The position numbers and the translations under genes are program-made. Under the pieces are notes generated by a model, which saw only the letters and a program-made list of their open reading frames with translations, ran no database searches and was not told where the DNA came from. A DNA stretch of 64,000 nucleotides from Stylophora pistillata (Eukaryota): positions 276,333-340,332 of the forward strand of contig NW_019218050.1 in the NCBI RefSeq assembly GCF_002571385.2. Reading direction: 5' to 3'. This document shows, piece by piece, positions 229 through 63,279 of the stretch; position 1 is the first letter of the stretch, and every line of letters begins with the position of its first letter.

Positions 229-702
229 CACAATCTCAACACCAAACATGATCCCATCATAAGGAGGAAGGGCGCCTTTGTAATGAACGATTGCATCCAC
301 ATTCTTCTTTAAATCATCCATCCACACAAGTACCTTACATCCTTCATTCTCCGTCAAAGCCCATCTCAGAAGATCCTGTCTGTCATTCACAATGCTACAT
401 CTTTTACTAAAGGATTGAACAGCCAGCAAAATTTGAGCGTCTTCTAATGAGATAACTTGTAACTCTTCTTTAGGACAATCGACCTCCAGACACTTTTGCT
501 TCAGACCACGTAAAGCTATCTTCTCACTGTCTTGAGCGGGTTGTTCGTCTACTGAACGAGCTTCAAATAATTCGCCTTTCAAGGCTATCGGAGGTTGCGT
601 TCCGTAGACGTAATTCGACAACATTCCCCACAGTACACCAGAATCTTGGGTCGAGGGGTCTTCCAAATCGCGAAGGAGAATGAAATTATTCCTCTTTTCC
701 AT
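229..702 (-). CDS. CYLD: First coding exon of a CYLD-like ubiquitin C-terminal hydrolase (N-terminal segment plus start of CAP-Gly 1); gene continues off the left edge
   Basis: ATG at 702. Translation ends 'VLVWMDDLKKNVDAIVHYKGALPPYDGIMFGVEIV', matching the CYLD CAP-Gly1 pattern (recalled human 'GVVRFRGPL..GIFFGVELL'). Phase-0 donor GTGAGT at 228. The USP domain is outside the window. Confidence 0.75.
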
Positions 703-2316: not shown

Positions 2317-4831
2317 ATGCCCAGAGGTTGGCGTGACATCAACAAACCTGACACAGCTGATTCTCAAAGGGGACGACAAAGGCTATCTCCCCGGAGGAAA
2401 AAGTCATGGGAAAAAGAAACTTTTACTCCTTCAGCTACTTCTTGTGACTTTGAGCAAAGAATTGGTGGCACTGCAAATGCTACAACATTGCTCAATAAGA
2501 GACTCCATACAGAAGTTCTTTCAAACTTAAGAGGGACCTTAGATCCAATTGACATCCCCAACACATATTCACCTATTAATCTACAAAAAGATACATCACC
2601 AACATCAAACAGTCTTCAGGGTATCACTCCACTTATATCCAGTAGTTCCTCAAACTCTGGTAAAAAAGTACTTAGCCCAAGTAGTCCAAAACCGCAGGGG
2701 CTTATTCCATTGTTAGCAGGGTCACCTAATAATGTGGACTTGGTAGGATCTGTTGCACGACCATCAACAACCCCACAGTGGATGCAGTATTTAAGTAATC
2801 AAAGTGTTGGTGGAAAGGAACAAGATTTAAACTCAGGTTTGTTATTAAGTCTTCCAGATTTTTATCCATGGTAATTAATAGGAGCTCTCACATCTGTTTC
2901 TGTGGTAAGAGTGTTCCCCTGGTCCGGTGATATTTTCTCCTTTTTTCCCATGGATAATGTGTAATGTCATTGTGTGTAATTGTGGTCATGATAGGTTTGA
3001 TCATTGCAAATAAAGTTGATAACATTTACTATTTAGGATATGCATTTTAGTTGTCCTATCATAAATATATATGTTTTTAACCAAGTTTGGTTGTTTTTTT
3101 TATTTCGTTCTTTTTTTTTTTTTATGGACAGATTAGGTGTACACAGGGTTGATAAAATGTCAAATAAGAAAAACAAACAAACAAATAAGGATACAAACAA
3201 ACTTAACCAAACAAATTAAAACATAAACAAGAAACCAAGAACATTGTTCAGTAATCTTGAGTAAACAAGCTTAGGCAATAAACAATTTCCCACATTGCCA
3301 AAATGTTGGCAATGGTCTAAGATACCATCGGGGGGGGGGGGGTGGATAGCATTACACTTAGCTCTCCACCCATGTCTTTGTAGTGTTAGCAATCAATGTT
3401 TAATTTTCAGGGTGAGCTGGTTCCCACATTTCTTACTCATTTTATGGGTAATTTTTAGTTGGGGTTCACCTGCAGCCTTATTAAAGAGGAAGGTCTCCAA
3501 GGGACTATGTGGTTGTTATGAAGCAAGAGGCAAATCCTCATTTTATTTTATGAATCACAGGTACTTCCTCTGGACTTCAGTATTTAGAAGAAGAGATTGA
3601 AAAACTTCAGTTTGAACAAAGTAAATGGGGGAAAGAAAGAAATGTCTTAGTAACAGAGCTAGAAGGCCTTCAAGAGGAATTTGAGATGACAAAGCAAGCA
3701 AAAGAAGAAGCTGAACAAAGAATTACCAGCTTGGAGGGAGAATTAAGAATCAAAGATGAACATGTGAATGAACTGCAACAAACTTTAAACACAGTTCAAC
3801 AAGCACTAGAGGAGTGCAGACAAAAAGAGTCCTGTGATTGGGCTATATCACGGGATGAGATTCACATGACAGATACCTGCCTTGGNNNNNNNNNNNNNNG
3901 CTGGGAAAATTTAGAGGCTGCAAAGTTGCTGTGAAGCAGATCCATGAATTGATACTTTCTCCACATAACCGACGTCTGTTTGAGCGTGAAATGAACATTG
4001 CCTCAAGATGCCGCCATCCTTGCTTGCTACAATTTATAGGGGCAACAAATGATGAAGGAAGTCCGTTGTTTGTAACAGAGCTCCTGGAATCTAGTTTACG
4101 AACACTACTAGAGCAGCAACCTCTCCCTGCTTCAGATATCTCTATTTTATCCGTCGACATAGCGCAAGCACTTAATTACTTACATTTGAGCAAACCTCCC
4201 ATTATCCACCGTGACATCAGCAGTGCGAATGTGTTGCTATGGCGACAAGGCGAGCAATGGCGAGGTAAGGTTTCAGATTACGGAACTGCTAACTTTATGC
4301 AACAGACCATGACAGTTGCCCCTGGTGCCATGATATACAGTGCGCCTGAAGCACTCACTTCAAATCAGACAATCAAGGTTAGTTGATGTGTGTTCATTAA
4401 TCAAAGTACTGAATTAGACTTACTTTGAGCAAGATCTCTGTTATGAATTGCTCCAACGTAGAAATATACCGGTTTTCTTAGCCATTTTACGACTGTAATA
4501 GTTTACTAATAAAACTATTTGTTTCATGACCTTAACGGTGCCCACCTTGCAAAGTAAAGGAAAATAGAACGACTGTTTTTTCTGCAATAAATCTAAGATA
4601 TTCTTCTTAATTTTTTGCTCTTTGTATCCTTTTCAGATCGATGTGTACAGTTTTGGAGTTCTTCTTTGTGAAATGTGTATACGGGAACTACCAGATCCTC
4701 AGAATCGCAAAGAGCAAGTGGCCATGGTAGCGAATCACGTGTTACGAGGTTTGATACGGCGCTCTGTTCAGACGGACCCAAAGGAAAGACCAAGTATGCA
4801 TGAGATTATCGAGAATTTGGAATCGTCCTAG
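2317..4831 (+). CDS. Kinase K1: S/P/T-rich N-terminus, coiled coil, TKL-type kinase; exons 2317-2836, 3561-4377, 4637-4831
   Basis: Phase-compatible GT-AG junctions (phase 1, then 0). Motifs VAVK, RCRHPCLLQFIG, HRDISSANVLL, VSDYG, YSAPE, IDVYSFG. A 14-N gap at 3886-3899 hides the Gly loop and causes the apparent frame change. Exon 1 is the least certain. Confidence 0.85.
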
Positions 4832-4999
4832 CTCTTTGAACGGAAATAAGAAAAAAAAAGGTTTACTATTTTTTCTATCCACACAGTATACATTTTAATC
4901 AAATTTTAGTTACAGAGAAGTCGAGTAAAAATAGAACTCTAAATTACTGTAGAAATTAGATCGCAGTACACTGTTTGGTTAGGTTTGTCATGTATTGAC

Positions 5000-7900
5000 C
5001 ATCCTCGGAGACCCAGGGGCTGTCGGTCGATTTCAAGTTAGGGCATGAAGAGCCCCTGGGGACATTGTCTTACAAGACTAGTTCCAAACGGTCGCAGTCG
5101 TTCTGCCATCTGATTGGAGCCAGAAAATCTTTGTGTTTTTCTGTCCAATCAGAGTGAAGTGTGCTTTAGAGTCCTTTCGTGTGTTTTAACACGGACATAT
5201 ACTAGTAGCTCAGTTGCTCACTATGTTTGTTTGGACCGTGCGACGGAGATTTGAGAAATCAATCAGATTGTCCGCGAAAATCTTACCGGAAATTATACTG
5301 AATACTTTCGCAGGTATCACTTGAGAACGTGTTTTAAAGTTTGCGAGGTTTCTCTACAGCACGATGGTTGCAGTCATTGATATGTCGCTTTAAACATTAA
5401 ACGAGATTTAAGCTTAAATCTTTCTAGATTTTTTGCATAATTTGCTAAGACTGAAACTTTGCCAATCCTGTGAAGTTATTTCGTCGCACGGGCCACGCAG
5501 GTATGTCGAGCAACTGGCGCTTTCGCCTACGTAGCTTTCTGCTTTCTGTGCGCACCAAAATCTAATCTTCGCTTTGTAGTAAAGTCGTTCACAATACGGC
5601 CAAGGTTGCAGAGAACGTTAAGTTGCACCTGNNNNNNNNNNNNNNNNNNNNNNNNNNNNNNNNNNNNNNNNNNNNNNNNNNNNNNNNNNNNNNNNNNNNN
5701 NNNNNNNNNNNNNNNNNNNNNNNNNNNNNNNNNNNNNNNNNNNNNNNNNNNNNNNNNNNNNNNNNNNNNNNNNNNNNNNNNNNNNNNNNNNNNNNNNNNN
5801 NNNNNNNNNNNNNNNNNNNNNNNNNNNNNNNNNNNNNNNNNNNNNNNNNNNNNNNNNNNNNNNNNNNNNNNNNNNNNNNNNNNNNNNNNNNNNNNNNNNN
5901 NNNNNNNNNNNNNNNNNNNNNNNNNNNNNNNNNNNNNNNNNNNNNNNNNNNNNNNNNNNNNNNNNNNNNNCAGAAAATCAAAGCAGAGATGTTGCAGTTT
6001 CATTTCCATGATAGAATCATACAACACCAAAAAGGAAGATACATCCATGAAATAAATCTTCAAAGAAGAAACTATTTCCTTCCAGCAATCTGCTGCATAT
6101 TGCGGTTTCATGATAATCTCTTTGTGAGCGATCTCTGTAACCAATTCTCTGATATTGTCATTTGTGACTTGTCTCTTACAGTCAAATGTGGAAAGAAATT
6201 CAAGTAGCTCATCATCATCGGGCTGAATACTCTGGCTTAAACATTTACCTATAACATCAGCCTCAGACCTTGATACATAATTCTGAAATGAACTCATCAA
6301 CATCCCATCAGTCACACTCTCTTCTCCAAAAAGACAAGCCACTAAAAAGGACTTACTAATCTTCACAGGGAAATATTGACAATCTTTATATCCCTTAACT
6401 ATGATTCTAGCAACTGCTTCAAACTTGTTTCTGTTGAAGTCATGACAGATATATGGGACTCTTTCAATTTCACCTAGCATATGAGATTCATAACAATCTT
6501 TCCAAAAAAGTGAAAATATTTCCCGTAATGGTCCAGTCCCTGCCCCAGATTCTTCATTACCTTGCTGATTAATAATAATGACAGATAAAGTGTATTTTAA
6601 GATCGACTCATCAGAAAATATATCTAGCATATCTTGCCTGACTAACGATCTATGAACCCTTATTATTTTAATAGGTTGTTCCGTTACAGGCACTTCTGTG
6701 TTGTGTGTGCTATTCATCAGACTGTCTTCATCAACCATCACGACATCTTCCACCTTTTGTTCAGCAACCTATTGCAGATAGATTTAGAGTCTACTGTTAT
6801 TTATGTAGAAAAAAACTGAGGTAAACACTAGCTGACATGTAGTGTACACTACACAAAGCTAAACCAAAACAAAAACAAACAAAATCTGAATTCGAACATC
6901 TCATGGTTCTTTGAAACGAGGTTTGCTCAAGTGCGACTGAGCCCCAATAGTGGAGTATTTGACAAAAGAAACCTCTGGTATGGTTGAGGATTTGAATTTT
7001 CGAAAATGTTAAATTCCCAGGGGGGCCATGGGCACTGCAGGATTTGACTCGTATGTAATTAACATAGCAATGAAAACTAACTTAATTGTAACTGAAGATA
7101 AGCTTAATAAATTGCACTCCTGCATGGTATTCCACAGTCCAATTCATCAGCAAAAAGCAACCAAGAAGATAGAGCCATCCCAACTGTTTATGAACACACA
7201 AGGTATTACCATCATAATTGAAAACTATGTTACAAAATGACAATGCTTACCTCACTTTCTTCACTAATCACTTCTTTGTCACCCTGATCAATCTGTTCTT
7301 TGGGAGGTTCCTCGACAACATTTTTTCCAGTAATGTTGTCTTGGTCACCAGATGCACCTGGTTGTGCATCAAAAGGTACACAAACATCTAAGTGCTGCCG
7401 GAGCTCATTCATTGGGAAAAATTTGTAGCATTGCTGACAAAACTCATCAGGAACGGACATTTTAGCTGGGATGACAACATCGTCAATATCCAGGTTTGAC
7501 TGTATGCCTGCTGATAGCTTTCTGTTTTCTGTGCGCGCCAAAATCTAATCTTAGTAGTAAAGACAATACGGCCAAGGTTGCAGAGAACGTTGAGTTCGTG
7601 GACGACCTCCAGCAAGTGCTAAGAGAAAGCTTAGCTGTGTTTCCGGTTAGCTAATTAAAATCTGAACAAAAACTTATTAACGAGAACATCGTGGGAAGGA
7701 GAGATGTTTTCGGGCAGTTACCGAAGGGGTTTGGAAAGAGTTTAATCTTTCAACTGCTGTCTAGAGTGTTGAAATTCTTGAGCTAGGAAGGCCACGGATT
7801 CTCTTCTAGTCCCTTGGTCATTGTCATTTCACCTCTTCTGTCGATTGTTGAAGACCAAGTTAAATACCTTTGATCATTGGGAATCGATCCGATGCTGTTT

Positions 7901-8652
7901 TCAATGGGAAAAACAAAACCAAAGACCAAGAAATATTGGATGGAAAGGGCGGGTTTGCTTTATTGCAAATGTCAGCTTAGTAGTACAGGGTCATCTACCC
8001 ACATCTAATAAGCAAAAGTTTCCACGCTTAGCTTTTCTTTTTTTTCAAGCGAAGATGAGATTTGATTTTGGCACGCACAGAAAGTTGCGCAATTACCAGT
8101 TGCTCGACATATCTACGTGGCCCGTGCGACGAAATAACTTCACGGGATTGGCAAAGTTTCAGTCACAGCAAATTATGCAAAAAATCTAGAAAGATTTAAG
8201 CTTAAATCTCGTTTAACGTTTAAAGCGACACGTCAATGACTGCAACCATCGTGTTGTATACAAACCTCGCAAACTTTAAAACACGTTCTATGGTGATACC
8301 TGCGAAAGTATTCACTATAATTTCCGGTAAGATTTTCGCGGACAATCTGATCGATTTCTCTTACATTGTGTGCTGAGACTGAAACTTTTCACCTCAAGCA
8401 AATCTCCGTCACACGGTCCAAACAAACATAGTGAGCAACTGAGCTACTAGAGTATGTCCGTGTTAAAACACACGAAAGGACTCTAAAACACACTTCACTC
8501 TAATTGGGCAGAAAAACACAAAGATTTTCTGGCACCAATCAGATGGCAGAACGACTGCGACCATTTGGAACTAGTCTTGTAAGACAATGTCCCCAGGGGC
8601 TCTTCATGCCCTAACTTGAAATCGACCGACAGCCCCTGGGTCTCCGAGGATG
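5000..8652. mobile_element. Non-autonomous AcademH-like DNA transposon with ~550-bp TIRs and 9-bp TSD
   Basis: Starts CATCCTCGGAGACCCAGGGG and ends CCCCTGGGTCTCCGAGGATG. TGTATTGAC on both sides (4991-4999, 8653-8661). Degenerate RecQ-like helicase motif I 'DVFGQLPKGFGKSL' near 7700-7750. Confidence 0.8.
5971..7510 (-). pseudogene. Fragment of a G2E3-like HECT E3 ligase with a UBZ-like zinc finger, inside the transposon
   Basis: Exon ending at 7251 (CQQCYKFFPMNELRQHLDVC) splices in frame to an exon starting at 6768 ('IRVHRSLVRQDM..EESGAGTGPLREIFSLFW..'), typical of a HECT N-lobe. Truncated near the N gap; catalytic Cys lobe not seen. Confidence 0.65.
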
Positions 8653-8669
8653 TGTATTGACAGACGTGC

Positions 8670-8884
8670 CGTTCGAGTTATCGAGGGCAAAAATATACAG
8701 AGAGTGACCTGAAGAGAAACGACAATTGCTTCGAGTTAGCGGGATGTTCGAGTTATCGAGGGTTTAAGTTGCCGAGGGTAAAACTGTAGTAAATGTGTGA
8801 CGGAAATCTAGGGGAAATCAATTTTGGTTTGAGTTAGCGCGAGATTTTAGTAACTGAGGGTTTGAGTTATCGAGAGTTGACTGT
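8670..8884. mobile_element. Partial MITE with TTCGAGTTATCGAG subterminal repeats
   Basis: Several copies or variants of ttcgagttatcgag, ending GAGAGTTGACTG; only one clear terminus. Confidence 0.5.
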
Positions 8885-11800
8885 TAAAGGCCCACGGTGG
8901 GCCCTGAAACCTGAAGATCATTATCAGTTGAAATACCCTAATCAGACTTCGAAGCGAACAGGAAACTGCCCGCACAAGATATAAACGTCCCACATAAAGA
9001 ATCAAAACTAGATATTTGCAATGTTCAAATTTGTTCTACTTCCGAGAAACTTCTTGTTTTCCAATGAGTAAAACTGTCTGATTGGAATCTGCGACACATC
9101 GTGCTCAAGGGCACGTAGTAATAGTGGTGAGGGGTTGTGTTACGCGTTGATTCATTTAGAAACGTCCGGGTTAATTACTTCCTAAGTCTTCTCCTTTACG
9201 TGACGGTTTTTTTTTTACAAAAAAAGACGCCCGTGTGCATTTGCTGAGGCACTAGTAATGGTAACATCTTGGGAAAGTTTTTCCTAGGTTTTCACTCATA
9301 ACTTACAAATCTTACCTAAGTAGCGAAGTAGTACCTAAGTAGTGTCACTGTCATGGTGATCAGAATCCTTAGATGCTAATTTTTTTTTGGAAAGGTTTCT
9401 TATTTCCTTATTGCTGTCAACAGGTCAAGACTTCCTGCCAATCATTATATTTCATTAGCAGCCTAAACAAGAGCCCTTATTGGTGCATTTCGTTGGAACT
9501 CAATCAAGGGCGGAGAACAGGGGTCCCTTAGGGTGCACGCGATCCCCTTTGTCACCGCTCCCCCTCGTTTAGAATAAGGTCTAATTCGTAAGAACAAAAC
9601 AATCGGATATACCAGCAAGTCGCTGATGTAGAATCCTTCTATTTGTAATCTATCTTTACCTCTTAAAAACGTTTTCTGAAATATATTACCATTAATGACT
9701 AATCGAGCTAGGTACAAACCAAATAGTTTGCTGTCTGACTCTCCCAATAGCGAACTGTCAACTTTTGATGACATTGTACATAAGATTGTCATAAGATTGT
9801 CACAGAACGCTAAAAACAGCGCCCTTCATTAGACGCGCGTCATATTTCTTCTCCCTACGCGTATCATGTAAATTTGAAAACAATCAACTGCACCGTTACC
9901 TTTTACAAAAGTAAGAACGAATCAAGAAAGAGGAACGATAAATACTACATAACTCTCGAGCCACTACAAGAACATACTCTTCATAAGCGACTGGGATTCT
10001 GAAAAGTTGGAAACGAAACTGAGAGGAAGATCTATACTTTTGCAAGATTAATCTGCAAAAATGTATGATCCGGCTGATTTGGAAGGAGGATTTCGCCCAA
10101 ACAGGGATTCAGAAAGCCGAGAAGCGGTGGAGTCTTCTGATGCTAAAGCCATACAGTTTTCGGAGACAACTTTTCTAGAGAAAAGAGGATATAGGTCACT
10201 CTCGCACTCCGACGAACAAGGCCAAGATGAAAGAAAGGTTAGGTTACTTTATTAATCAGGCGAAGAATGCGAATTTGAAATGTAGGTTTCAGTGATACCC
10301 AAAAGAAAAATGAAACAGTAAGTTTTCACTATTTTATAACTTTTATATCAGTCGGATTGAAACGTTTATAACGGTGTTTAGCATCGGTTGGATATATTCA
10401 GCTGTCTCATTTTTGGTCTTAAAGTTCTTATCAAAATACGTCATGAAACGACATTATAAAGCTGAATACCCCAGATTCCAAATGTTGAGAGGTTGTGCGC
10501 GTCCTCCGGTTTACAACAGAAAAAAAAGACCTTCCGTCGCCTTACCGTAAATTGCTGTAAACAATGACCGGTTATTCATCTGCCGTTTGAGTTAGATAAA
10601 ATAAGATTTTCAAGGGTGTTCGTGACACAGTTTTTGCTTTCAAGACAGCCAAAAACATATATAAGCCATTCATGTATTCAGCCCTCATAAAATTATGAGC
10701 GGTTGCAAGTTTTCCCATCTGCCAGTTTGTTGGGCCGTGCAATTCGTGGTCAATAATTAATTACAATTACATTACCATTAATTCATGGTCATTCAGTCGT
10801 AATGTAAACTTCATTTTCATGAAGCTAATTTTACTAACAATTTAAGATCTGCTGAAGGTTCGTGCCGACACAGTCTACTTGAGATGGAGTTTCGGGGTGT
10901 CCTTACTTAATTTAAGACCATGTTCACTTTGATCTGATGCTTTCAAGTCTAATAACAGGTCTATCAAGTTTTGACCAATCACAATAAAGTTGAGAACACG
11001 GGAGTAAACCTCAGAACTGCATACTAATTAACGTGTGTCTGCAGTTTAATTTGGCTTTGTTTTTAAATGACAGACTTATTCATCCAATTATCGAACCTAG
11101 CCTTATTGTAAGGGAAGAGAGCACAGATTGCAAGTCACAAATCATTATTAGAATGGATAGTACATGTAATAATCATAATGGTAATGATAATAAATCATGT
11201 TCGGTCCGTAATCATACTAGTGATTACAAAATGATTGCACGTGATTGAACACAGGTGTGATCGGTGCATCTTAGAATTTGGAAGAAAAAATTTTTGTTGA
11301 ATAGAGCATTTTACCGTTTAAATCTGCGAATTATGCTTAGTAGATCTGATAATATAATTTTTGCAGTTCTTGCCGTGACACTCTAAAAGACGATGACAAT
11401 CTCAAGTGGCATCCACCGAACCAGAATTTGAATCAAAACTTTTCTAAGCAGAAATGTCTCAATTGATGTGATCTGCACATCATGTAAATTTGGAGGGAAT
11501 TTTATTAAGAGAACATTTTACCGTTTGAATCAGCGACTCGACTCATACCCAAAACAACTAAATATTTGCGTAGCGAGAAAGTTGCGAAATACGATACCTT
11601 GAGTTGACAGGGTGACCCTATTTAATGAAAGGATGGAACGGCGGATAGGCGGAATGGCGAAGTATCTTAACGCACGGATTAACAGAATATTAAAAAACGA
11701 AGAATACTTTGTTGTATGAAACAATTCTCACACAAATGGAATTACAACAAAACAAGAAAATTGTTTAGCACTTATTCGGTAAACAATCCTCGAGACGAAG

Positions 11801-51300: not shown

Positions 51301-51359
51301 GGGATCCTGAGGATCGTCCAAGGATTGAGGATATCGTTAATATGTTGGGCATGGGCTGA
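42318..51359 (+). CDS. Kinase K4: CYLD-N-like domain, coiled coil, TKL kinase, pseudokinase; exons 42318-42617, 44059-44122, 44617-44778, 46345-46470, 46846-47804, 49417-50334, 51165-51359 (~907 aa)
   Basis: All junctions GT-AG and phase-consistent (0,1,1,1,0,0); total 2724 nt with no internal stop seen. Kinase 1: GEGAWG, VAVK, HRDLSSAN, DYG. Kinase 2: GKGSLG, VAVK, HRNVSSAN, KLTISIAT. Linking exon 1 to the kinase exons is inferred. Confidence 0.8.
44477..44555 (-). mobile_element. tRNA-derived SINE head
   Basis: Reverse complement of ccgcctcccggttagttcaattggctagagcg...gggttcgagccccgg; sits between two ~35-bp direct repeats (aggatctccttccccc...). Confidence 0.65.
45208..45306 (+). pseudogene. 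Degenerate duplicate of the K4 coiled-coil exon
   Basis: KLENEL..LQREQINSLSTKIEALERQLSEN with a 1-bp insertion; the downstream intron is homologous to 44800-44940. Confidence 0.6.
45580..46322. repeat. ~47-bp C-rich minisatellite, ~16 copies, intronic
   Basis: Unit TTATTGAACCTCTCCTCCCCCCATCCCCTCCCTACCGACAATCCCAG. Confidence 0.95.
47888..49042 (-). mobile_element. Non-autonomous AcademH-like transposon in a K4 intron
   Basis: TIR TAGTCTCCTTCGCAGC/GCTGCGAAGGAGACTA; flanks CTCACTTCG and CTCACTTCT (8/9). RecQ-like fragment 'YQKLAIQKFVVQKQDVLVNLPTNSEKSLIYQALP' at 48654-48839. Confidence 0.75.
50426..50876. mobile_element. MITE, possibly Harbinger-like, in the last K4 intron
   Basis: Imperfect TIR gcccc..tttatatggtctcgggtacc / ggtacctgagaccatgtaaatggggc with TGA on both flanks. 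Confidence 0.6.
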
Positions 51360-54251: not shown

Positions 54252-56856
54252 TAATAGGAGGCGAGATACGAACAATGTAAATGCCTGTATTTTTGCTTCA
54301 ATGACAGCGTTTTAAAGCTTACAACTATAAATATACAGCTTAAATTCAAAACGAGGCCCCCCTGCCATATCTGCCTGCACCCCTTAGAAACCTCGCCTTG
54401 TTGTGGAACGTGACAACTGGTAACAATCTGTATAGAAATTAGAACATCAAAATTGAAAAAAATGAATAAATGGGGAGTGGCGGAAGGGAGGTACATTGCT
54501 ATATCTCGCCTCCAGTATTATTCGTACAATTATAATTATACTTCAGATTGCAAGCAGCCTTTGCAAAATCTCCAATTGTACATCATAATACTCGTCTGGA
54601 TATAACAATGTATGTTCAAAGCTTCAAGACCTCGGTTCAACTGCAGCACTAGCTAAAAGAGAGCGGCCGACACTAACATTCCAAACAGGACGATAATAAA
54701 ACTTGAAAGTGGACTCATTTGTCCAATCAGCTAGACGAACTATTTCTGGAATAGAGAAGCCTGCTCTCGGCGCTGCAGAAGTAGCTGCTCCACGAGTGGA
54801 GTGAGCCCTGAATACTTTGTTATCAATTCCAGCTTCCAACAGACAGTTCTTAACCCACTGAGACAGGGTAGCAGAATTCACAGGCTAATGAGGGTTATTC
54901 ACAGAGAGGAATAACCTGTTTGGAGCAGCCACTGATTCTGGCCTAAAAGCCTGTGTTCGCCTTTCATATTCTTTAAGACACGAGCATGGGCACAGCAACT
55001 CATTTTCTGGGAAACTAGAGCGAAAGGAGGTCTTCAAGGGTTTTACAACCCGAAACCCTTTAGTGAGTACTGGGAGATTAAAAGAAACACCTTCTGGATG
55101 AAATCGTCTAAAACGTAAATCATGGGCAATTAGTTCAGAGCCCAAATAACTCGTAACTATGTTAACAACCCATGTAGACGTGTATCTGGGTACCGGTGGA
55201 CGGGAATTGAAAATCCCTTTTAGGAGCTGAACTACAAGGGGATGTTGCCCAACATCGTAACCTTCAATTTGTGAGTGTGTCGCAGACAAAGCTGAACGAT
55301 ACACGTTTAGTGTACGATACTCCAGGCCTGCCTCAAAGTGACTGGCTAGGAAGTTTAACACTGAACCAAAAGATGCTGAAAGGGGATTGAGTTGTTGTTC
55401 ACGACACCAACAAGTCCACTTTTTCCAGGCTGAAGAATAAGTTTTTTCTGTCCTGGTTCTCCATGCAGCCTGGAGCAGTCTTTGAGCTGGTAGTGAAACT
55501 GTTGTACCTTCATATCGACTCCTGAGACTAGCCATGCGGCTAGTTGAAGGTGGGCAAGAGGGTGAAACTTGTTCTCTTGTCTCAGTAGCCCTGGGAACGA
55601 TGGGAGAAATAGGGGATTGTCTATTGTTAATTCTAACAACAAGGGGTACCATGGTTGGGTTTCCCACACTGAAGTCACAATTGTCAACTGAAAGACTGAC
55701 TGACACAGAACTTGCTTTAGTCACCGCACTATTAGGGCAAATGGAGGGAATGCGTATCCCTTGAGCTGGCTCCAATCCAGATTAAAGGCATCCACTCCCT
55801 CTGCCTCTGGATCTGGCTTCCAACTCACACACCTGGGTAGTTGTGTTCTCAGTCTGCTTGCAAAAAAGATCTATTGTGAAGGGGCCCCATTTGTCTTTGA
55901 TCCCTTGTGGATCGAAATCGGCCACAAAGTTTAGCCGCCCCGGAAAGTGGTGAGCTTCGACTGTGATAGACCGATTTAGACACCATTGCCAAAGGTCGAA
56001 GGCTAGGCTTGACAAAATCAGTGATGTGGGCCCACCCATATTTTTTATATAGCTGTATTGTCCATCATTAACTTTACATGGATGTTGCACTTGTTTTTTA
56101 GGAATGACTTAAGGGCAAAACCGCCCGCTAGAAGTTCTAAACAATTTATTTGTAAGAGCCTTTCTGACTGAGACCAAAGCCCTCTGGTCTGAAAGTTTCC
56201 ACAACGTGCTCCCCATCCCATCGATGAAGCATCTGTTTCGATTGTCAAGTGAGGAGGGGTTCGTAAAATTGCTCTCCCGTTCCAAGCAGAAAGGTGTTCT
56301 CTCCACCATTTTAGTTCTTCGAGGGCTTCCTCTGTCCAACACACTGGGGACTCGTAGCCCCCATGAAGGGTTAGACTGTGCTTTTTGACTGCTCGGATGT
56401 GACGATAATGAAGGGGTGCTGGGAACACCACTTGGATCGAAGCACTTAGTTTCCTCAAAAGCCGAGCTAGCTCTGTTATCGTGATGTCTCGGTTTTCCAG
56501 AACTTTCTGGCATTCTCTTCTGATACTCTTTACTTTGTCTAAGGGAAGGCTGATATTTAGTGTAACTGAATTTATGCGGAACCTAGAAACTCTATTGACT
56601 GTGTAGGATTTAGCTGGGATTTTTTGTAATTGACCACAAACCCTAATATCTCTAAAAGGGTGACTGTCAATGTGGTATGATATGTTAGAGTTTCTTCGGT
56701 GGAGGCCATCAGTAAAAAATCGTCTAAATAAATGATCAGACGAATTCCTTACTTTCTTAACAGGCCTATCACGGGTTTCAAAAACTTGATAAAGACTCTG
56801 GGGGCACTTTCTATTCCAAATGGGAGGCATGCAAACTCCCACTGAGTACCATTCTT
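54252..56856 (-). mobile_element. Degenerate 5'-truncated DIRS-type tyrosine-recombinase retrotransposon
   Basis: Frameshifted RT (CLPFG..SAPRVF; YLDD), RNase H (IETDASSMGWGA..INCLEL), 'GPFTIDLF' MT-like segment, recombinase ('YRTLNVYRSALS', 'RAHSTRGAATS'), and complementary repeats at the 3' end. Confidence 0.9.
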
Positions 56857-57000
56857 ATTTTATTTAATCGCTTTCACCATACTTACAATGCTAAAAGGAC
56901 TAAAATATACAAATGAACAAGACACAGAAGAGAACCAAAGAAACCGGAGGAATTTTTGGCGACCTTTCCAAATTGGAACTGAGAAGAGTTCATAAGCGAG

Positions 57001-57541
57001 ATGGGTCAGACACAAACAAAAGAGACGAATCCACGAGATGAATTAAGCAGTGGAGAGGAGACAATCACCGAACTTAGAAATCAACTCTCATCCTTGAGAG
57101 AAGATGTCAGTTTTCCTGATTGCTCTTTCCCCTTTCCACTCTTTTTGTATAAATGTTTTATTCGCTCTTAATGAAAGTTGTGTTCCACCACCGGGATGTT
57201 TTTGGTTTTTTTCTCCCAACAAACTTTAACTGGAGTGCGCCATCTTCAAACTACGCTGACATGCCTGTAAAATATCAAAAACCTACGCTAAGAAAAAGAA
57301 CAGAAACGGATGAAGTTACTTTTGGATTAATTTTTTTCAGATTGATTTCTTTAGCTTTGGTGTTCTTCTCTGCGAAGTGTGCATCAGGGAAATGCCAAAT
57401 CCTATTCGGTGTGTTCTTTAAGTAGACTCGATGAGGAGCATCAGAACTAGACAACTTGCACGAGGCTGCGTGAGGCAAGAAGCCCGTGAGAGACCAAATA
57501 TGGAGGAGATAATAAATGAGCATTTGAACCAAACTAGTTAA
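57001..57541 (+). pseudogene. Relic of a K3-type kinase gene lacking the main kinase region
   Basis: MGQTQTKETNPRDELSSGEETITELRNQL at 57001. Last exon from 57341 reads IDFFSFGVLLCEVCIREMPNPIRCVL*VDS...ERPNMEEII with an internal stop. Confidence 0.75.
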
Positions 57542-59940
57542 AGTAGTGGAACGTTATATCCTTACAGTCAGGCCTTACTTACGGTTGACTCGCTGGCCAC
57601 AGTAAGTTGTTAATCAGTCTCGTTTCACTGATAGTTACTTTCAAACGAAGGCAAGCGCGCGTTTAGATGCACTAATATTGAACATCTAAGTAGCATACAT
57701 TCACATATCTTCAACAGGTGCTTTTATCGTTTTTCTTCGCTTTCGTAAAGATCGATAACCGATGGAAAATGTGGTCTATTGCTTAGTTATCAGTGCGATT
57801 TATTTTACACGATTTTTAACAATTATACGAAAAGTTAGTTCAGGATAGCGGAATCGCAAAATCACAGCTTAGGTTACCAGCAGTAAGTAAGGTTTATTAA
57901 GATCATGATTAAAACCGGTTCTTCTTCACTAAACCTGAGAGGTTCAAGTCAAGGTCGCTGCATAGCCTTTCAGTAATTGCAAGGGTTTTACGAGTCACTG
58001 ACCATAAATATCAAGAATCCGCCGACAGTGGCAAGATTTCGTCATTCATTTTAATTTTCCTACAGGACCCATTTGGTGAACCTTTTGTTTGTTCTTTTGT
58101 TTGTTCTTGCGGCGTTAACGTCTCCTTCTCAACCGTTTTTCGGAGGTGTCATGAAACGACGCCCCCGGTCCTGAACAAAATCGTTATGTTTTGATCGTCC
58201 CCGATAAAAGCTGGTTGGAAAGGAGACTACGCTTCAAAACAAGCAGATTGCTCTTTGGTTATACGAGTGGCATATAGATGGTTGTGGTTTTTGAAATGCC
58301 ACTTTTGTTACTTCGATCGCTTAAAAAATAGCAACACACAATGTTGGAAAGGAACAATGTTCAAACGAAATAAATCGTGGCGATCAGCAAAGCAAAGGCG
58401 ATGAAAGAATATAAGTAAAGTTTATTCCTCGTTTCCTATAATATTCCTGTTGAGTGTAATATGTTTGCTACCCTTATTCAAGCATTTTCATTAAGTATCT
58501 GTGAATGTTTACTTATAAGCAAAAATGTATTCGAGTTTTCGTTTGAGATTTTTTGTGCCATGTCATATGTACAAACCATATTTGTTACGAGCGGCTGTTA
58601 CATAACGATAAGTATTACTACAGTATGATTGTAGAAAAGTGTTGTTAGCTTTGTACATGTATATTTATTATAAATAGTCAGTCAAAGTAGAATAAAAGGG
58701 ATAGTTCTGAATGTTCGCTTATGCTTTGCGTTGACACGAAGCTCAGGATAGGGATTTCGTACATTTAATGAGGACAGACGTGGTCATTTCAATTTGAATT
58801 AAACTTCTTAAAGGAACATTACTGTCACGGAAAATGGATCACGCGTTTCATTTCATTTTCCTTTGACGAAAGTACAATTTCTAGATCAAAGCTGAGTTCT
58901 AGTGACACATACGTTACTTGAGTACTTGAGACATAGGTTTTAATCCAACTTGAAACAAAAACGGGCCAAATAGAATTACTCATCTCAACACTTATTAGAT
59001 GCAAAAAGGAACGAACGACTGTGCCAGTTAATTTTCTACAGGAAATTTAGTGATGGTAATCAGCGTGACTTAAGGGTCTTGTTTTGTAAACCAGTCGACA
59101 AGGATTTATTATGCGATTTGCAAATTTGACAGCGCTGGCTGTCTGCTGATAATTTCTCTTTCCTCCCAAACAATATAGCTCAAAGTAAGGTTTCATTCTG
59201 AAATAACAAAACCTTAATCCTTGATTATCAAGAGAAGATTACTTCATCCTCTCTGAATGACCGATTAACTTCTCGATTCTGAATAGTGACTGACCGTTTA
59301 AAAGAAAGTTATGTCTCAGTAACAAAGTTATCTTTATTCTTTTCTTAATCTTTTCCAGTGCTATCCATTTCATTGAATCTGTGAATATTAGCCCGCTTGT
59401 ACACAAATTAAAGCAGAACAGGAACATACGCCACTTCACACGAGATCTACATATATTCAAGCCGGGGCCAAGATGAAGAGAGTTGTTCTCGAATACGCAA
59501 AACAAATGAGTCCAATTCTTTTCGATACAACAAACATTAAAACTAGCCCAAGGAGTTTTTTTAACCTTAGTTTTCTGGTGAACGTAGCTCTCATGGGAAA
59601 AGAATCTTTTGCTCTTCTAAACTAATTATATGACTTGTATAAAACAAAAACAAAAAAAATAAACAAAGTCTTTTGTAAAGCGTAGTAAAAAGATGCTGCA
59701 GAAAAAATCAAGAGATGGAACCACGCATGTAAAGTCTTAGAATGTTGTAGTTTTAGTATTCGAAACGGATTCGAGTCTGTTTTCATGTTGACTCAGGGTT
59801 CTGACATTTGTGAGACCCGCCCCTCCCCCTTCGGAAATAGAGTGTAATTCAAAGGGGCCTGATAGATAATCACTTGTTTTCCGTTTGAAAATTAAGTGGA
59901 CCACATTCGCTCCGTTTGCAACGTTCCTGACAATTTGAGC

Positions 59941-62430
59941 ATGAAAGTATGCTTATTATATTACTCATACTGAAGATAGTGAAATGCGCCCTCCTCAAGG
60001 TAAATGTTTACTTGGCCAGGCAAATTAAACATTACAAGAAGTAAACATTAGAAAAAGGAACGATACTCGAAAGTGAGCAAACCAAGTAGACCAGATTCTT
60101 TGTGGCTGATCGAAAAGAAGTATGAGGGAATCGACAGAAAGTTAGAATCTCTTTGATTTGTAGAGGTTGAACTGCTGGGAACGATTATGGGTTTTCAACC
60201 GACAGCGACGCTCTAGAGGACAGACAGAAACGGTGAGTGATTTTTACCGGTTAAATCAGTTCGTGGTTCAGTGCCAATCGCTGTCCATCAGCGCGGACTA
60301 CAGAGTTCGAAGCAATTAGCTTCTTTGAATTATGTTGCTTGGTTTTAATGACTTAGAACTAAGCAGCAGTTGAAAGTTTCTCCATGAATTTGTTTTTCTG
60401 TCGGTAGAATTGATACGTGACGACTCGAGTGTCAAACCAGGAAGTAGAATTAAGAAGAGCCAGCCCCATCATTAAGACCAATGACCCCGGCCCCAACCAA
60501 AATTTATACTTCTGATCACGCTTCATCAAGAGAAGAAGTAACAAATAGGAAACGTTTCTTCAATTAACAAATCTGATAGAAAGATGAAACAGTAATTATC
60601 TGCCATTTACCGAAAATAAGCGACAGAAAAGCGTAAACGAATGCAACACATGATTGTCAGCAGGCATAAAAGTTAAAGCTCAAGGATTCTGGTTAAATGA
60701 AAATAACAAGATGCCTCCGGCATCACAAAACGTACATTTCGATATATTTATCGCTTGGAACCAAGTAACGTCCAAGTTGTGATCCCTGTCGTAAAGTTTC
60801 TACGACAGGGATTGGATATTGTGAGACTGGTTTTATTTCAGTTGAGTCGATTGTGCATTTTTCTCATGCGTGTTTACCCGAGAGCACTTAGTCGTAGCCC
60901 GTTTAATGACTTGATTTTTATTTCAATAAGGCGATAACCTGTAACTGGCAATATCTTGCAGATCATCTGACGGATTAAAATGAATTTATCTTCAATTAGC
61001 GGTCTCCCTTATTGACCTCAGTTTTCTTATAGACTAGATGTGTAAAATTCTTTCGAGAAGTCATTTAGAATTGCCTTCAAAGGTGGATTCAATAATCGTA
61101 GCTTACCGGACATTTGGGCGTGATTAAACGAAAATTATTTTCTCTTGTATTTAAGTTTTGTACTTAAAGCGGTCTACTTTTAGTAAATAAAAACATTCAA
61201 GTAAAAACATTTTAGTAAATAAAACATTCATTTTAAAAATTTCAGGAAGCTACACTTAAGAGGATGGAGGAAGGGAAGATGTAATCTGCTTTGCGACCGG
61301 CATGAGGAACAAAGAAAAACATCTGAGTTCCCATTTGGCATACAAGCCCAGACCTTCGGATTTTGCGCCCTAATACTTTGAATTCCTAGCGAGGGAACTC
61401 TTCTTTACTACATGCTCGAAGAACGAGTCTAAAATCTGCCATGTTTCTTATTTTTACACTAAGAGGGCTTGTTAAAATAGTTGTTGGGAAAACCAGCGAC
61501 ATCCGTTCATCCGCTTAAAACTAAACAGCTCCTGTACTTTACGAAAACATCTGCCATCCCTCTCCAGCATATTGATTAATATTATTGGCGAGTAATGCCT
61601 TTGGATTAAGCCTGACACCACACGACACAATGATAGCTCTACAGATTAATCTAAACCTAATAATAAAATACAATAACCTTGTTATCGGAGAAAACAAGAC
61701 GTCGGTATATGTTTGCTTTAAGGGAAGTGATCGGAGGAACGCTCACGTATAGGCTAAGCTTTTGGGACCAAGAACACCTTCTACAGTAGGTATGTACGAG
61801 CAGCTATCAAAGACATATGTTCAATTAGATACTATGTGCATGATTAAATGGAATAACAGAACTCTCTCTGACTCTTTCCGGAAAGAGCTGCAATTTGATA
61901 TTCCATCTTAAGCCTGTCTACACATCGTTCGGTGTTAGATATATACTGAAACGATTACAACCTACAGGGTCAGAGAAACTGGTGGATGTTTACCTCCACT
62001 TTATATAATTAGTGAATTATTTTATCACATCTAAACTTTTCAGTATGCTTTTAAATTTGAACATGGTCCTTTGAAAGGACCTCTCCTCCCTCCCCCCTCC
62101 CTCCTCCCCCCTCATCATGGAATAATCCCATTCACAGTATTATAGTCTCAGACGCCGACGGGAGGAGAATACTCCGAAGTAGACGGTCAGAAGTTAGGTC
62201 TACCAGACAAGAAAGAAACTCTTTGAAACTCTTAACGGTGGCCAATTTACATCATCATCCCCCCCCCCACACACACACAAACACACACCGACGTAGCATT
62301 ACAGTTTCTTTAGAAACTTACTTCCTTTATTTACTGGTCAAAACGTAGCTAAAAATAACAGAGAACAAATCAACACCATAACAGCAGAGACGGAAGAACT
62401 TAAGGAGCATAAAAACATATTTTTTGGTAG
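59941..62430 (+). pseudogene. Truncated K4-like pseudogene: decayed CYLD-N-like exon (59941-60232), ~64-nt exon (~61723-61790), coiled-coil exon pieces (62151-62430)
   Basis: Clear nucleotide homology to K4 exons 1-3 and to 62956-63279, with indels and stops; no kinase exons follow. Confidence 0.75.
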
Positions 62431-62955
62431 GTTTTCAAATGATTTAAGATTTCTAGAAAGTTCAGTAGAACGGTACGTGACATGAAGAAGGAAGTAGAAT
62501 GAAAAGAAAACATTCATTTGACTAAGCAACTTATGTATTGAAAGAGGAAGTGAGTTAACATTGTAAAGTTTACATAAGGAAGCAAAACTTCTTAATGACA
62601 GATTAACAATAACAAAAATACGAATAGATTTATTGCAGTCTACGGACGTCCCAATAGTAAAGTGGTTGTGAAATTGTAACGTGATCTGTATCTAAAAAAA
62701 AATCCTACGCATGTAGAATGTTGCGGTTTGAGTAATAATCTTCGAAACGTATCCGGGTAATGTTGACTTAGGGTTCTGACATTTCTGAGACCCGCCACAC
62801 GCCTACCCATATACTATTTAGCCCCTTCCCCCTCCGGAAATAGAGTGTCATCCAACGGTGCCTGTTTTGCGTTTCTGATAGATATCGGTTGTATACCGTA
62901 TGAAAATTAGGTGGACCACATTCGCTCCGTTTGCGACGTTACTACCAATTTCAGC

Positions 62956-63279
62956 ATGAAAGTGTATTATATTCTTATACGGAATATAGAGAAATGCGCT
63001 CTCTTCCAGGGAGATGTTTACTTAGCCTCTAAAAGGTTGCAAGGCAAAGAATTAGAAAAAGGAACGATACTGAAAAGCGAGCAAACCAACCAGACCAGAT
63101 TCTTTGTGGCTGATCGAAAAGAAATATTTTTTGATAGGAACTGCGTTGAGGAAATCGACGGAAAGTTAGAACTTCTTACATATGCGGAGGCTGAACAGCT
63201 TTTGGAGATTATTTCTCTAGAGGAACGACTGCGGGTATTCGACGCCGGACAGCGACGCTCCGGAGGACAGACAGAAGCG
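62956..63279 (+). CDS. First exon (CYLD-N-like) of another K4 paralog; gene presumably continues past the right edge
   Basis: Open 108-codon exon, well over half identical by eye to K4 exon 1, with a phase-0 donor GTAAGT at 63280. Confidence 0.75.

What the first reader, a model, noticed from the sequence alone, without database searches (positions are those of the whole stretch)
2317..63279. Modular kinase cluster with swapped N-termini and birth-and-death turnover
Seen: at least six kinase-fold domains plus relics share one core and one intron position but differ at the N-terminus. K1 has an S/P/T-rich N-terminus, K2 small charged exons, K3 MGQ plus repeats, and K4 the CYLD-N-like exon. The coiled coils are built from symmetric phase 1-1 exons (183, 195, 162, 126 nt), and K2 and K4 share a 64-nt phase 0-1 exon (VRPCTATG / LRPRTPTE). 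Inference: exon shuffling onto a common output module, a pattern typical of immune or allorecognition receptor loci.
Basis: partly seen in the sequence, partly recalled or inferred. Interest (0 to 1): 0.7.

Follow-up and report, generated by a model that had tools for sequence, protein, structure and literature searches.

The report
Coral kinases carrying borrowed bait domains
This is a cluster of coral signalling kinases from a family whose members keep gaining front-end pieces copied from ordinary host proteins, and sometimes a second, disabled kinase domain, much as some plant disease-resistance proteins do, so it may be an unrecognised animal system for detecting pathogens.

Summary
The cluster is real. 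The window matches Stylophora pistillata, and K4 equals a deposited 907-aa protein. K2, K4 and K5 are kinase + pseudokinase tandems.

Inside the window, swapping is weaker than claimed. K0, K1 and K3 have stable Oculina orthologues, the phase 1-1 exons are local duplicates, and K4's CYLD-N exon looks like a cut-down inherited module.

Across corals, swapping is strong. In 45 of 120 relatives the kinase carries an N-terminal domain, of 15 kinds, including pieces of CYLD, eIF4G, USP15, TSG101, Rab5 and DAB2. Such domains sit on kinases 91–94% (Montipora) and 87–93% (Oculina) identical. Tandems arose more than once, and every second domain lost a catalytic feature.

Best reading: cytosolic coiled-coil TKL kinases acting as integrated-decoy sensors, convergent with plant kinase-fusion and tandem-kinase resistance proteins. 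There are no functional data. The fusions in other corals rest on gene models whose DNA I could not inspect. Surface allorecognition receptors are not supported. My paper searches found no description of the family.

The parts
229..702 (-). K0 first exon: CYLD-N plus first half of CAP-Gly. The gene (coiled coil + kinase) runs off the left edge, head-to-head with K1.
   Evidence: 100% over 158 aa to P0058 (714 aa, CAP-Gly + kinase, on a 2747-nt contig); 76% to Oculina P0070; Nematostella P0060 E 1.6e-33
2317..2836 (+). K1 exon 1, S/P/T-rich, phase 0-1
   Evidence: matches the N-terminus of Oculina P0018
3561..4377 (+). K1 exon 2: coiled coil + kinase up to subdomain VIII. An N gap at 3886-3899 hides the Gly loop.
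4637..4831 (+). K1 exon 3: kinase C-lobe end and stop
14384..14447 (+). K2 64-nt exon, phase 0-1. No CYLD-N exon was found upstream of it.
14882..15064 (+). K2 183-nt exon, phase 1-1, charged, not coiled-coil-like
15524..15718 (+). K2 195-nt exon, phase 1-1, charged
16334..17154 (+). K2 linker + kinase domain 1 (catalytic motifs intact)
18014..18817 (+). K2 fused exon: end of kinase 1 (stops at 18062 and 18077) + pseudokinase domain 2
19613..19801 (+). K2 last exon
33202..34029 (-). K3 exon 1: MGQ start, 63-nt repeats forming a coiled coil, kinase up to subdomain VIII
   Evidence: Oculina partner P0052 also starts MGQ
31877..32089 (-). K3 exon 2, giving a 346-aa intact single kinase
42318..42617 (+). 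K4 exon 1: diverged CYLD N-terminal (pre-CAP-Gly) domain; CAP-Gly absent
   Evidence: hhalign 93%, E 3e-7, against K0-type N-termini; 39%, E 3e-4, against a deubiquitinase-only profile; column-shuffled controls at most 8%
44059..44122 (+). K4 64-nt exon, phase 0-1
44617..44778 (+). K4 162-nt coiled-coil exon, phase 1-1
45208..45306 (+). Dead duplicate of the coiled-coil exon (1-nt insertion); not in the 907-aa model
46345..46470 (+). K4 126-nt coiled-coil exon, phase 1-1, a duplicate of the 162-nt exon
46846..47804 (+). K4 main coiled coil + kinase domain 1 (catalytic motifs intact); phase-1 acceptor
49417..50334 (+). K4 fused exon: end of kinase 1, 57-aa linker, pseudokinase domain 2 (alphaC Glu to Thr, HRD to HRN, DYG to ISI)
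51165..51359 (+). K4 last exon and stop
57001..57541 (+). K3-like relic: MGQ/coiled-coil start (57001-57105), kinase exon body missing, C-lobe exon with a stop (57341-57541)
   Evidence: 0 of 1000 shuffles reach its score against the K3 N-terminus
59941..62426 (+). K5-like relic: broken CYLD-N exon, 67-nt exon (61723-61789), coiled-coil exon remnant
62956..63279 (+). K5 exon 1 (CYLD-N). The gene continues off the right edge as an 857-aa kinase + pseudokinase.
   Evidence: P0002, 99% over 110 aa

Best explanation
The locus is part of a cnidarian family of cytosolic TKL-group kinases built as [variable N-terminal module]-[long coiled coil]-[kinase], sometimes with a C-terminal pseudokinase. SHOWN by sequence: the family expands in tandem arrays; in several corals near-identical kinases carry domains copied from unrelated host proteins; CYLD pieces were captured repeatedly; kinase-pseudokinase tandems arose more than once. 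INFERRED origin: the coiled-coil/kinase exon opens with a phase-1 acceptor (K1, K2, K4), so upstream exons of a partly duplicated host gene can splice in frame. The tandem formed when a deletion joined one gene's last exon to the next gene's kinase exon. INFERRED function: the captured domain is bait, or places the kinase in the host complex that a virus or bacterial effector attacks. Binding, cleavage or clustering of the bait re-orients the coiled-coil dimer and switches the kinase on. The pseudokinase acts as brake, second bait or output surface, as proposed for plant tandem kinases. K0, K1 and K3 are the old, conserved members; K2, K4 and K5 are the turning-over branch.
For: Of the 120 listed hits (of 465 found), 47 carry a globular non-kinase Pfam domain, of 15 kinds. 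It lies N-terminal of the kinase in 45 of 47. Nearest solved relatives of six such domains: TSG101 UEV E 3e-34, USP15 DUSP-UBL 2e-73, Rab5 4e-81, eIF4G 5e-119, Grb2/CIN85-type SH3 6e-20, DAB2 PTB 1e-30. Montipora kinases with eIF4G, USP15, SH3 or CYLD N-termini form one clade (100/95) at 91-94% identity between types. Oculina kinases with PTB, Rab5, filamin or CYLD parts form another clade (100/97) at 87-93%. An Oculina kinase N-terminus is 91% identical over 139 aa to Oculina CYLD, against 68% to Stylophora CYLD. Different CYLD segments (N + CAP-Gly1; CAP-Gly3) were taken. Kinase-borne CYLD-N is not one clade, p-AU 0.0003. The captured Rab5 has Lys at the switch-II Gln (that Gln's catalytic role is recalled). 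All five cnidarian second domains lack a catalytic feature and are not one clade, p-AU 0.0004. dN/dS between window paralogues is below 1: CYLD-N 0.36 (0.19-0.59), pseudokinase K2 vs K4 0.32 (0.22-0.48), kinase pairs 0.13-0.27 where dS is not saturated. Full CAP-Gly-, WW- or RRM-coiled-coil-kinase proteins sit on 2.4-3.8 kb contigs (e.g. P0040, P0056, P0058, P0086), which implies spliced transcripts. Plant precedent: PMC13478195, 10.1101/2024.04.30.591956, 10.64898/2026.08.07.743466 (passages).
Against: There are no functional, expression-under-challenge or population data, and no transcript was seen for K1-K5. Fusions in other corals are database gene models whose DNA I could not inspect, so merged neighbours are possible; P0025 and P0026 (kinase followed by CYLD parts) look like such merges. 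Within the window only one module type is foreign (CYLD-N), and it looks inherited and truncated, not newly captured. K0, K1 and K3 are stable orthologues. dN/dS shows no sign of positive selection. No helper NLR or MLKL gene was seen in the window. Only 2 of 77 scanned unnamed representatives of the single-kinase type (P0141, P0252) showed a globular N-terminal domain, although most such records are single-exon ORFs. One AU test (CYLD/CAP-Gly-bearing kinases as one clade) gave p 0.34 in one run and 0.0025 in a rerun (KH and SH 0; delta lnL about 455 in both). The K4/K5 CYLD-N branch is long and its place in the tree is unsure. That the donor proteins are pathogen targets is recalled, not shown here.
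Confidence: 0.55

Rival explanations
1. Neutral chimeras and gene-model merges in a recombination-prone, transposon-rich array. Only K0, K1 and K3 do anything; the rest is short-lived debris.
For: K2 is nonsense-disrupted, and there are three relics and mobile elements between the genes. CYLD paralogues share scaffolds with the kinases, so merged models are easy to make; P0025 and P0026 look merged.
Against: K4 keeps a 907-aa frame over 7 exons and has a Pocillopora N-terminal counterpart at 80% identity. dN/dS is 0.32-0.36 on the pseudokinase and CYLD-N. The eIF4G and SH3 fusions recur in two Montipora species. Several fusions lie on transcript-sized contigs. The foreign domain is N-terminal in 45 of 47.
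Confidence: 0.2
2. Ordinary signalling kinases re-addressed by borrowed targeting domains (endosome, ESCRT, translation complex, ubiquitin chains), serving stress responses or symbiosis rather than pathogen sensing.
For: All the captured domains are interaction or localisation modules. K0, K1 and K3 are conserved and under purifying selection.
Against: The domain sets differ between coral genera on nearly identical kinases, which is hard to square with stable housekeeping signalling. Pseudokinase tandems arose repeatedly.
Confidence: 0.17
3. An intracellular allorecognition (fusion/rejection) locus, analogous to fungal incompatibility genes.
For: It is a clustered, variable family in a colonial animal (inference only).
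Against: There is no signal peptide or membrane segment. The variable parts are copies of conserved host domains, not hypervariable ectodomains. There are no linkage data.
Confidence: 0.08

Closest known systems
Plant kinase-fusion proteins and tandem kinase proteins (RWT4, WTK4, Sr62, Rpg1, WTK1/Yr15)
   Same: Intracellular; kinase + pseudokinase tandems; N-terminal integrated domains (in WTK4 an HMA-like domain binds the effector; PMC13478195, passages); repeated independent fusions.
   Different: The kinase lineage differs: RWT4 is LRR_8B (10.1101/2024.04.30.591956), while these are a cnidarian TKL family nearest TNNI3K, CTR1, TAK1 and IRAK4 in the PDB. They have a long coiled-coil spacer, and most members have one kinase. 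No effector and no helper NLR is known.
Integrated-decoy NLRs; mammalian NLRP1 and CARD8
   Same: A bait region built into the sensor (PMC11781737, passages).
   Different: No NACHT/NB-ARC, LRR or CARD. The output here would be a kinase. The baits are whole folded domains of many host proteins.
CYLD deubiquitinase
   Same: Source of the N-terminal module of K0, K4 and K5 (CYLD-N, with or without CAP-Gly).
   Different: The USP domain is absent, replaced by coiled coil + kinase. K4 and K5 also lack CAP-Gly.
RIPK / IRAK / MLKL / JAK immune kinases and pseudokinases
   Same: Kinase-pseudokinase logic; a TKL-type core (IRAK4 E 2e-21).
   Different: No death, CARD, four-helix-bundle or FERM-SH2 module by Pfam; similarity is only at general kinase level.
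Database labels 'DDB_G0271682', 'drkD', 'U-box domain-containing protein 33/53/70', 'myosin-like'
   Same: These are the names that sources give to family members.
   Different: The labels appear to be best-hit transfers: no U-box or myosin domain was found by Pfam in the members scanned.

Membership tests
TKL-group protein kinase (active) | VAVK Lys, alphaC Glu, HRD, DFG-like and APE motifs intact | tested here: met
   K1 (Gly loop in an N gap), K2 d1, K3, K4 d1 and K5 d1; nearest solved kinases are TNNI3K, CTR1, Fyn/Src, TAK1 and IRAK4
Pseudokinase (second domains) | Loss of the catalytic Asp, the DFG Asp or the alphaC Glu | tested here: met
   K2 d2 and K4 d2 lose all three; K5 d2 loses the DFG Asp; activity not measured
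Plant tandem kinase / kinase-fusion proteins | Two kinase domains, or a kinase fused to an integrated domain, with no membrane segment | tested here: met
Plant tandem kinase / kinase-fusion proteins | Kinase domains of plant receptor-kinase subfamilies such as LRR_8B | tested here: not met
   The best PDB matches are animal TKL/TK kinases and CTR1 at general kinase level. Analogous, not a member.
Plant tandem kinase / kinase-fusion proteins | Recognises a pathogen effector and confers resistance | not testable with these tools
   Needs experiments
Plant tandem kinase / kinase-fusion proteins | Genetically linked helper NLR | tested here: inconclusive
   None among the ORFs examined in this 64-kb window; flanks not available
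CYLD deubiquitinase | N-terminal pre-CAP-Gly region and CAP-Gly | tested here: met
   K0 type: both present. K4/K5: pre-CAP-Gly region only, with weak to moderate support
CYLD deubiquitinase | USP/UCH catalytic domain | tested here: not met
   Absent from P0002 and P0058 and from the scanned K4 exons; present in P0123, P0125 and P0126
MLKL | N-terminal four-helix bundle + brace + single pseudokinase | tested here: not met
   The N-terminus is CYLD-derived and an intact kinase precedes the pseudokinase
RIPK / IRAK-Pelle | Death, CARD or RHIM module | tested here: not met
   No such Pfam family in the window exons or in P0002/P0058
Roco/LRRK | Roc-COR tandem | tested here: not met
   Absent; the one GTPase-bearing relative carries a Rab5 copy without COR
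Surface allorecognition receptors (Alr-like) | Signal peptide, ectodomain, membrane helix | tested here: not met
   Maximum 19-residue hydropathy 1.1-1.5, inside the kinase core; N-terminal maximum 0.7. The family's features are recalled.

The most novel reading that the evidence does not exclude
Corals and anemones have a kinase-based integrated-decoy immune system. An expanding coiled-coil TKL kinase repeatedly captures domains from host hubs that pathogens attack (CYLD, eIF4G, TSG101, Rab5, USP15, CIN85-like, DAB2, PARP14-like) and repeatedly forms kinase-pseudokinase tandems, converging on plant kinase-fusion resistance proteins. The list of captured domains would then be a genomic record of the host proteins that coral pathogens or symbionts target.
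Probability: 0.45. Interest if true: 0.9.

Novelty: new variant of a known kind. Interest (0 to 1): 0.74.

Why it matters
Integrated-decoy kinases and tandem kinases are known as pathogen sensors in cereals; none of my ten paper searches returned an animal counterpart. If the reading holds, it adds a class of intracellular sensors to coral immunity beyond TLRs, TNFRs and NLRs. It would show convergence between plants and early-branching animals, and it names candidate effector targets for coral disease and symbiosis work. The conserved K0 type has a Nematostella orthologue, which makes the question testable in a genetic model.

Tried and rejected
Symmetric 1-1 exons as imported modules: rejected, because they are duplicates of one another.

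A CYLD-N relic upstream of K2: none found by six-frame HMM search.

A CAP-Gly remnant behind the K4/K5 first-exon donor: no significant match.

Folding the K0 N-terminus: low confidence (pLDDT 53). Foldseek gave no match at E <= 0.001, only weak SH3-type rows, so I did not use it as evidence.

ESM Atlas on K4 residues 1-100: best score 0.79, uninformative.

Pfam names none of the K4, K5, K0 or K1 first exons on their own.

The window kinases (K1-K5 domains) as one clade: rejected, p-AU 2e-6. The array is old and mixed, not one recent burst.

Not available: the cluster-member look-up could not be made, the complex predictor was not available, and a full-length K4 model was not accepted. Dimerisation and kinase-pseudokinase contacts are therefore untested.

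I had no genomic DNA of other corals, so their exon phases and gene models are unchecked.

Paper searches that found nothing on this family. The S. pistillata genome paper (PMC5730576) has no occurrence of 'kinase' in its main text. Only one short supplementary file was held and it had no hit; its datasets S2-S7, which I could not see, may list these genes. Reveguk et al. 2025 (PMC12282663) was not held; I saw only its citation.
Full report
SOURCE AND GENE MODELS. A search with the exon at 49417-50334 returned a Stylophora pistillata protein of 907 aa at 100% identity (P0001). It is identical to my seven-exon model of K4, so the window is a coral locus. Translation and splice-site checks gave K1 (+, three exons, N gap over the Gly loop), K2 (+, six exons, stops at 18062 and 18077), K3 (-, two exons, 346 aa) and K4. 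Two more genes touch the edges. K0 (-, 702-229) is identical over 158 aa to a 714-aa CYLD-N/CAP-Gly/coiled-coil/kinase protein (P0058). K5 (+, from 62956) is the start of an 857-aa tandem kinase (P0002). Relics lie at 45208, 57001-57541 and 59941-62426.

OBSERVATION CHECK. The six domains, the shared phase-0 intron, the exon sizes and phases, and the shared 64-nt exon (42/64 identical, z 8.6) are all real. The coiled-coil claim is only partly right. The main heptad stretch shares an exon with the kinase, K2's 183- and 195-nt exons are proline-containing and not heptad-like, and the four 1-1 exons are duplicates of one ancestral exon. K2, K4 and K5 therefore share an N-terminal ancestry; they do not differ by import.

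THE KINASE. It is TKL-type. The nearest solved structures are TNNI3K, CTR1, Src-family kinases, TAK1 and IRAK4, at E 1e-20 to 1e-29, so there is no close vertebrate counterpart in the PDB. Named relatives come from stony corals, anemones and Hydractinia; 469 representatives score E <= 1e-30. No window protein has a signal peptide or membrane helix by hydropathy. K3, its Oculina partner and the 57-kb relic all begin MGQ, which may be a myristoylation site (inference).

TANDEMS. In K2, K4 and K5 the first domain keeps all catalytic motifs. The second domain of K2 and K4 has lost the alphaC Glu, the catalytic Asp and the DFG Asp; that of K5 has lost the DFG Asp. The three second domains form a clade (100/99). 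One exon carries the end of domain 1 and the start of domain 2, and both domains keep the family intron, which points to a deletion that fused two neighbours (inference). Five of the 120 hits have two full domains, and one more is degenerate. The Porites and Actinia tandems also have damaged second domains. Holding the five cnidarian second domains together is rejected (p-AU 0.0004). dN/dS between K2 d2 and K4 d2 is 0.32 (0.22-0.48), so the pseudokinase was maintained by selection.

OLD AND YOUNG MEMBERS. In a 48-sequence IQ-TREE tree, K0, K1 and K3 each pair with an Oculina kinase. The K0 and K1 kinases are 87% and 85% identical to those partners, and K1's S/P/T-rich N-terminus and K3's MGQ start are shared with them. 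The Oculina genes lie on one 64.4-Mb contig, with locus tags G012317-G012385 for many members; I infer synteny from this, not from DNA. Turnover in the window is confined to the K2/K4/K5 branch and the relics. The window's domains are not one clade (p-AU 2e-6).

THE CYLD MODULE. K4's first exon matches the pre-CAP-Gly region of K0-type proteins (hhalign 93%, E 3e-7). It also matches a profile made only from CYLD deubiquitinases (39%, E 3e-4); 30 column-shuffled controls reached at most 8%. True CYLDs with three CAP-Gly domains and a UCH domain share scaffolds with the kinases in Stylophora and Oculina. An Oculina kinase N-terminus is 91% identical over 139 aa to Oculina CYLD but 68% to Stylophora CYLD. 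Other kinases carry the CAP-Gly3 region instead. Kinase-borne CYLD-N domains are not one clade (p-AU 0.0003, with a long-branch caveat). CYLD-bearing kinases as one clade gave unstable AU values, 0.34 and then 0.0025, with KH and SH 0 and delta lnL about 455. Capture from CYLD is thus recurrent in the family. K4 and K5 hold a diverged, CAP-Gly-less version under relaxed purifying selection (dN/dS 0.36).

OTHER CAPTURES. Of the 120 listed hits (465 found; 33 of the 120 are ENA records, mostly single-exon ORFs that cannot show upstream exons), 47 carry a globular non-kinase domain. There are 15 kinds, and the domain is N-terminal in 45. Six were compared with the PDB and match TSG101, USP15, Rab5, eIF4G, Grb2/CIN85-type SH3 and DAB2. 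Pfam adds PARP14/DTX3L-type RRM-KH, WWE, macro, filamin, ankyrin, WW, RING and HEPN domains. Montipora kinases with four different N-termini are 91-94% identical, and Oculina kinases with four are 87-93% identical; each set is its own clade. Sister kinases share no N-terminal similarity in four of five pairs tested (local scores 26-35; the fifth, with CAP-Gly in both, scored 75). The captured Rab5 has Lys at the switch-II Gln. These fusions are database gene models, and P0025/P0026 look like merges. Recurrence in two Montipora species and transcript-sized contigs for several fusions argue that many are real. A scan of 77 of the 138 unnamed representatives found only two single-kinase members with such a domain (CAP-Gly, AIG1), but most of those records stop at the intron.

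MECHANISM. Shown: the architecture, the intact and dead kinase domains, repeated capture, repeated tandem formation, gene death and purifying selection. Inferred: in-frame capture through the phase-1 acceptor of the coiled-coil/kinase exon (K1, K2, K4); coiled-coil dimerisation; activation when the bait is bound, cut or clustered; and a pseudokinase acting as brake or output. From recall, several donors are known pathogen targets (eIF4G for viral proteases, TSG101 for viral late domains, Rab5 for bacterial effectors, the PARP14/DTX3L antiviral module), and CYLD restrains NF-kB and cell-death signalling. I put the sensor reading at 0.55, neutral or merged chimeras at 0.2, non-immune re-targeted signalling at 0.17 and intracellular allorecognition at 0.08.

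COMPARISON WITH WHAT IS KNOWN. Plant kinase-fusion proteins are defined as tandem kinases or kinases fused to an integrated domain (10.1101/2024.04.30.591956, passages). WTK4's integrated HMA-like domain binds its effector (PMC13478195, passages). Sr62 and RWT4 signal through a released pseudokinase to a helper NLR (10.64898/2026.08.07.743466, passages). Mammalian integrated decoys are NLRP1- and CARD8-type (PMC11781737, passages). The coral family is built like the plant proteins but is not a member of them. It also fails the membership tests for MLKL, RIPK/IRAK, Roco, CYLD and surface allorecognition receptors. Nine searches aimed at the family or an animal counterpart found no description (listings only). 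The library lacks most subscription journals, and the genome paper's datasets were not visible.

VERDICT. The finding is real and more interesting than first framed, but for a different reason. The window is a mixed old-and-young array with kinase-pseudokinase tandems, and the striking domain swapping appears across the family rather than among K1-K4. New variant of a known kind; interest 0.74; function untested.

Noticed in passing
window 21983-27151: A 5.2-kb element bounded by 37-bp perfect inverted repeats. It has minus-strand ORFs, one with a phospholipase A2-like domain (PF08398, E 3.5e-8) and duplicated ORF starts that recall Polinton/adintovirus minor capsid proteins (label recalled; no Pfam hit).
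   Followed up: partly
window 21892-21997 and 28699-28803: A 106-bp inverted pair at 94% identity; the right copy runs into short telomere-type TTAGGG repeats.
   Followed up: no
window 54627-56854 (minus): Broken ORFs that recall a DIRS-type tyrosine-recombinase retroelement (label recalled; no Pfam hit at 1e-4), just upstream of the K3-like relic.
   Followed up: partly
window 5530-7544 (minus): ORFs recalling a HECT/G2E3-like repeat family of coral mobile DNA (recalled; only a weak DUF3885 hit), interrupted by a 339-base N gap.
   Followed up: no
window 45581-46327: 47-nt minisatellite, 16 copies, in the K4 intron between the duplicated coiled-coil exons.
   Followed up: no
window 41039-41224: 13-nt tandem repeat, 14 copies, about 1.1 kb upstream of K4.
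   Followed up: no
window 5000-5517 and 8096-8652: 557-bp inverted repeat pair at 89% identity flanking the HECT-like ORFs; possibly the ends of a mobile element.
   Followed up: no
window 17366-17504, 18975-19176, 34920-35077: Palindromic elements of 140-200 bp, MITE-like; the first two are in K2 introns.
   Followed up: no
proteins P0123-P0130 (Stylophora, Oculina): CYLD itself appears multi-copy in corals and shares scaffolds with these kinases; a Paramuricea protein (P0131) fuses CYLD-N/CAP-Gly to a RING domain. One paper search found nothing on a coral CYLD expansion.
   Followed up: partly
proteins P0085, P0178, P0239, P0254 (unnamed sources): A further tandem type whose first kinase belongs to a different subfamily; P0085's second domain lacks the DFG Asp. 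Origin not determined.
   Followed up: no
protein P0121 (Pocillopora verrucosa): K4's N-terminal half (CYLD-N, 64-nt-type exon, coiled-coil exons) annotated without a kinase; either a split model or a kinase-less decoy.
   Followed up: no
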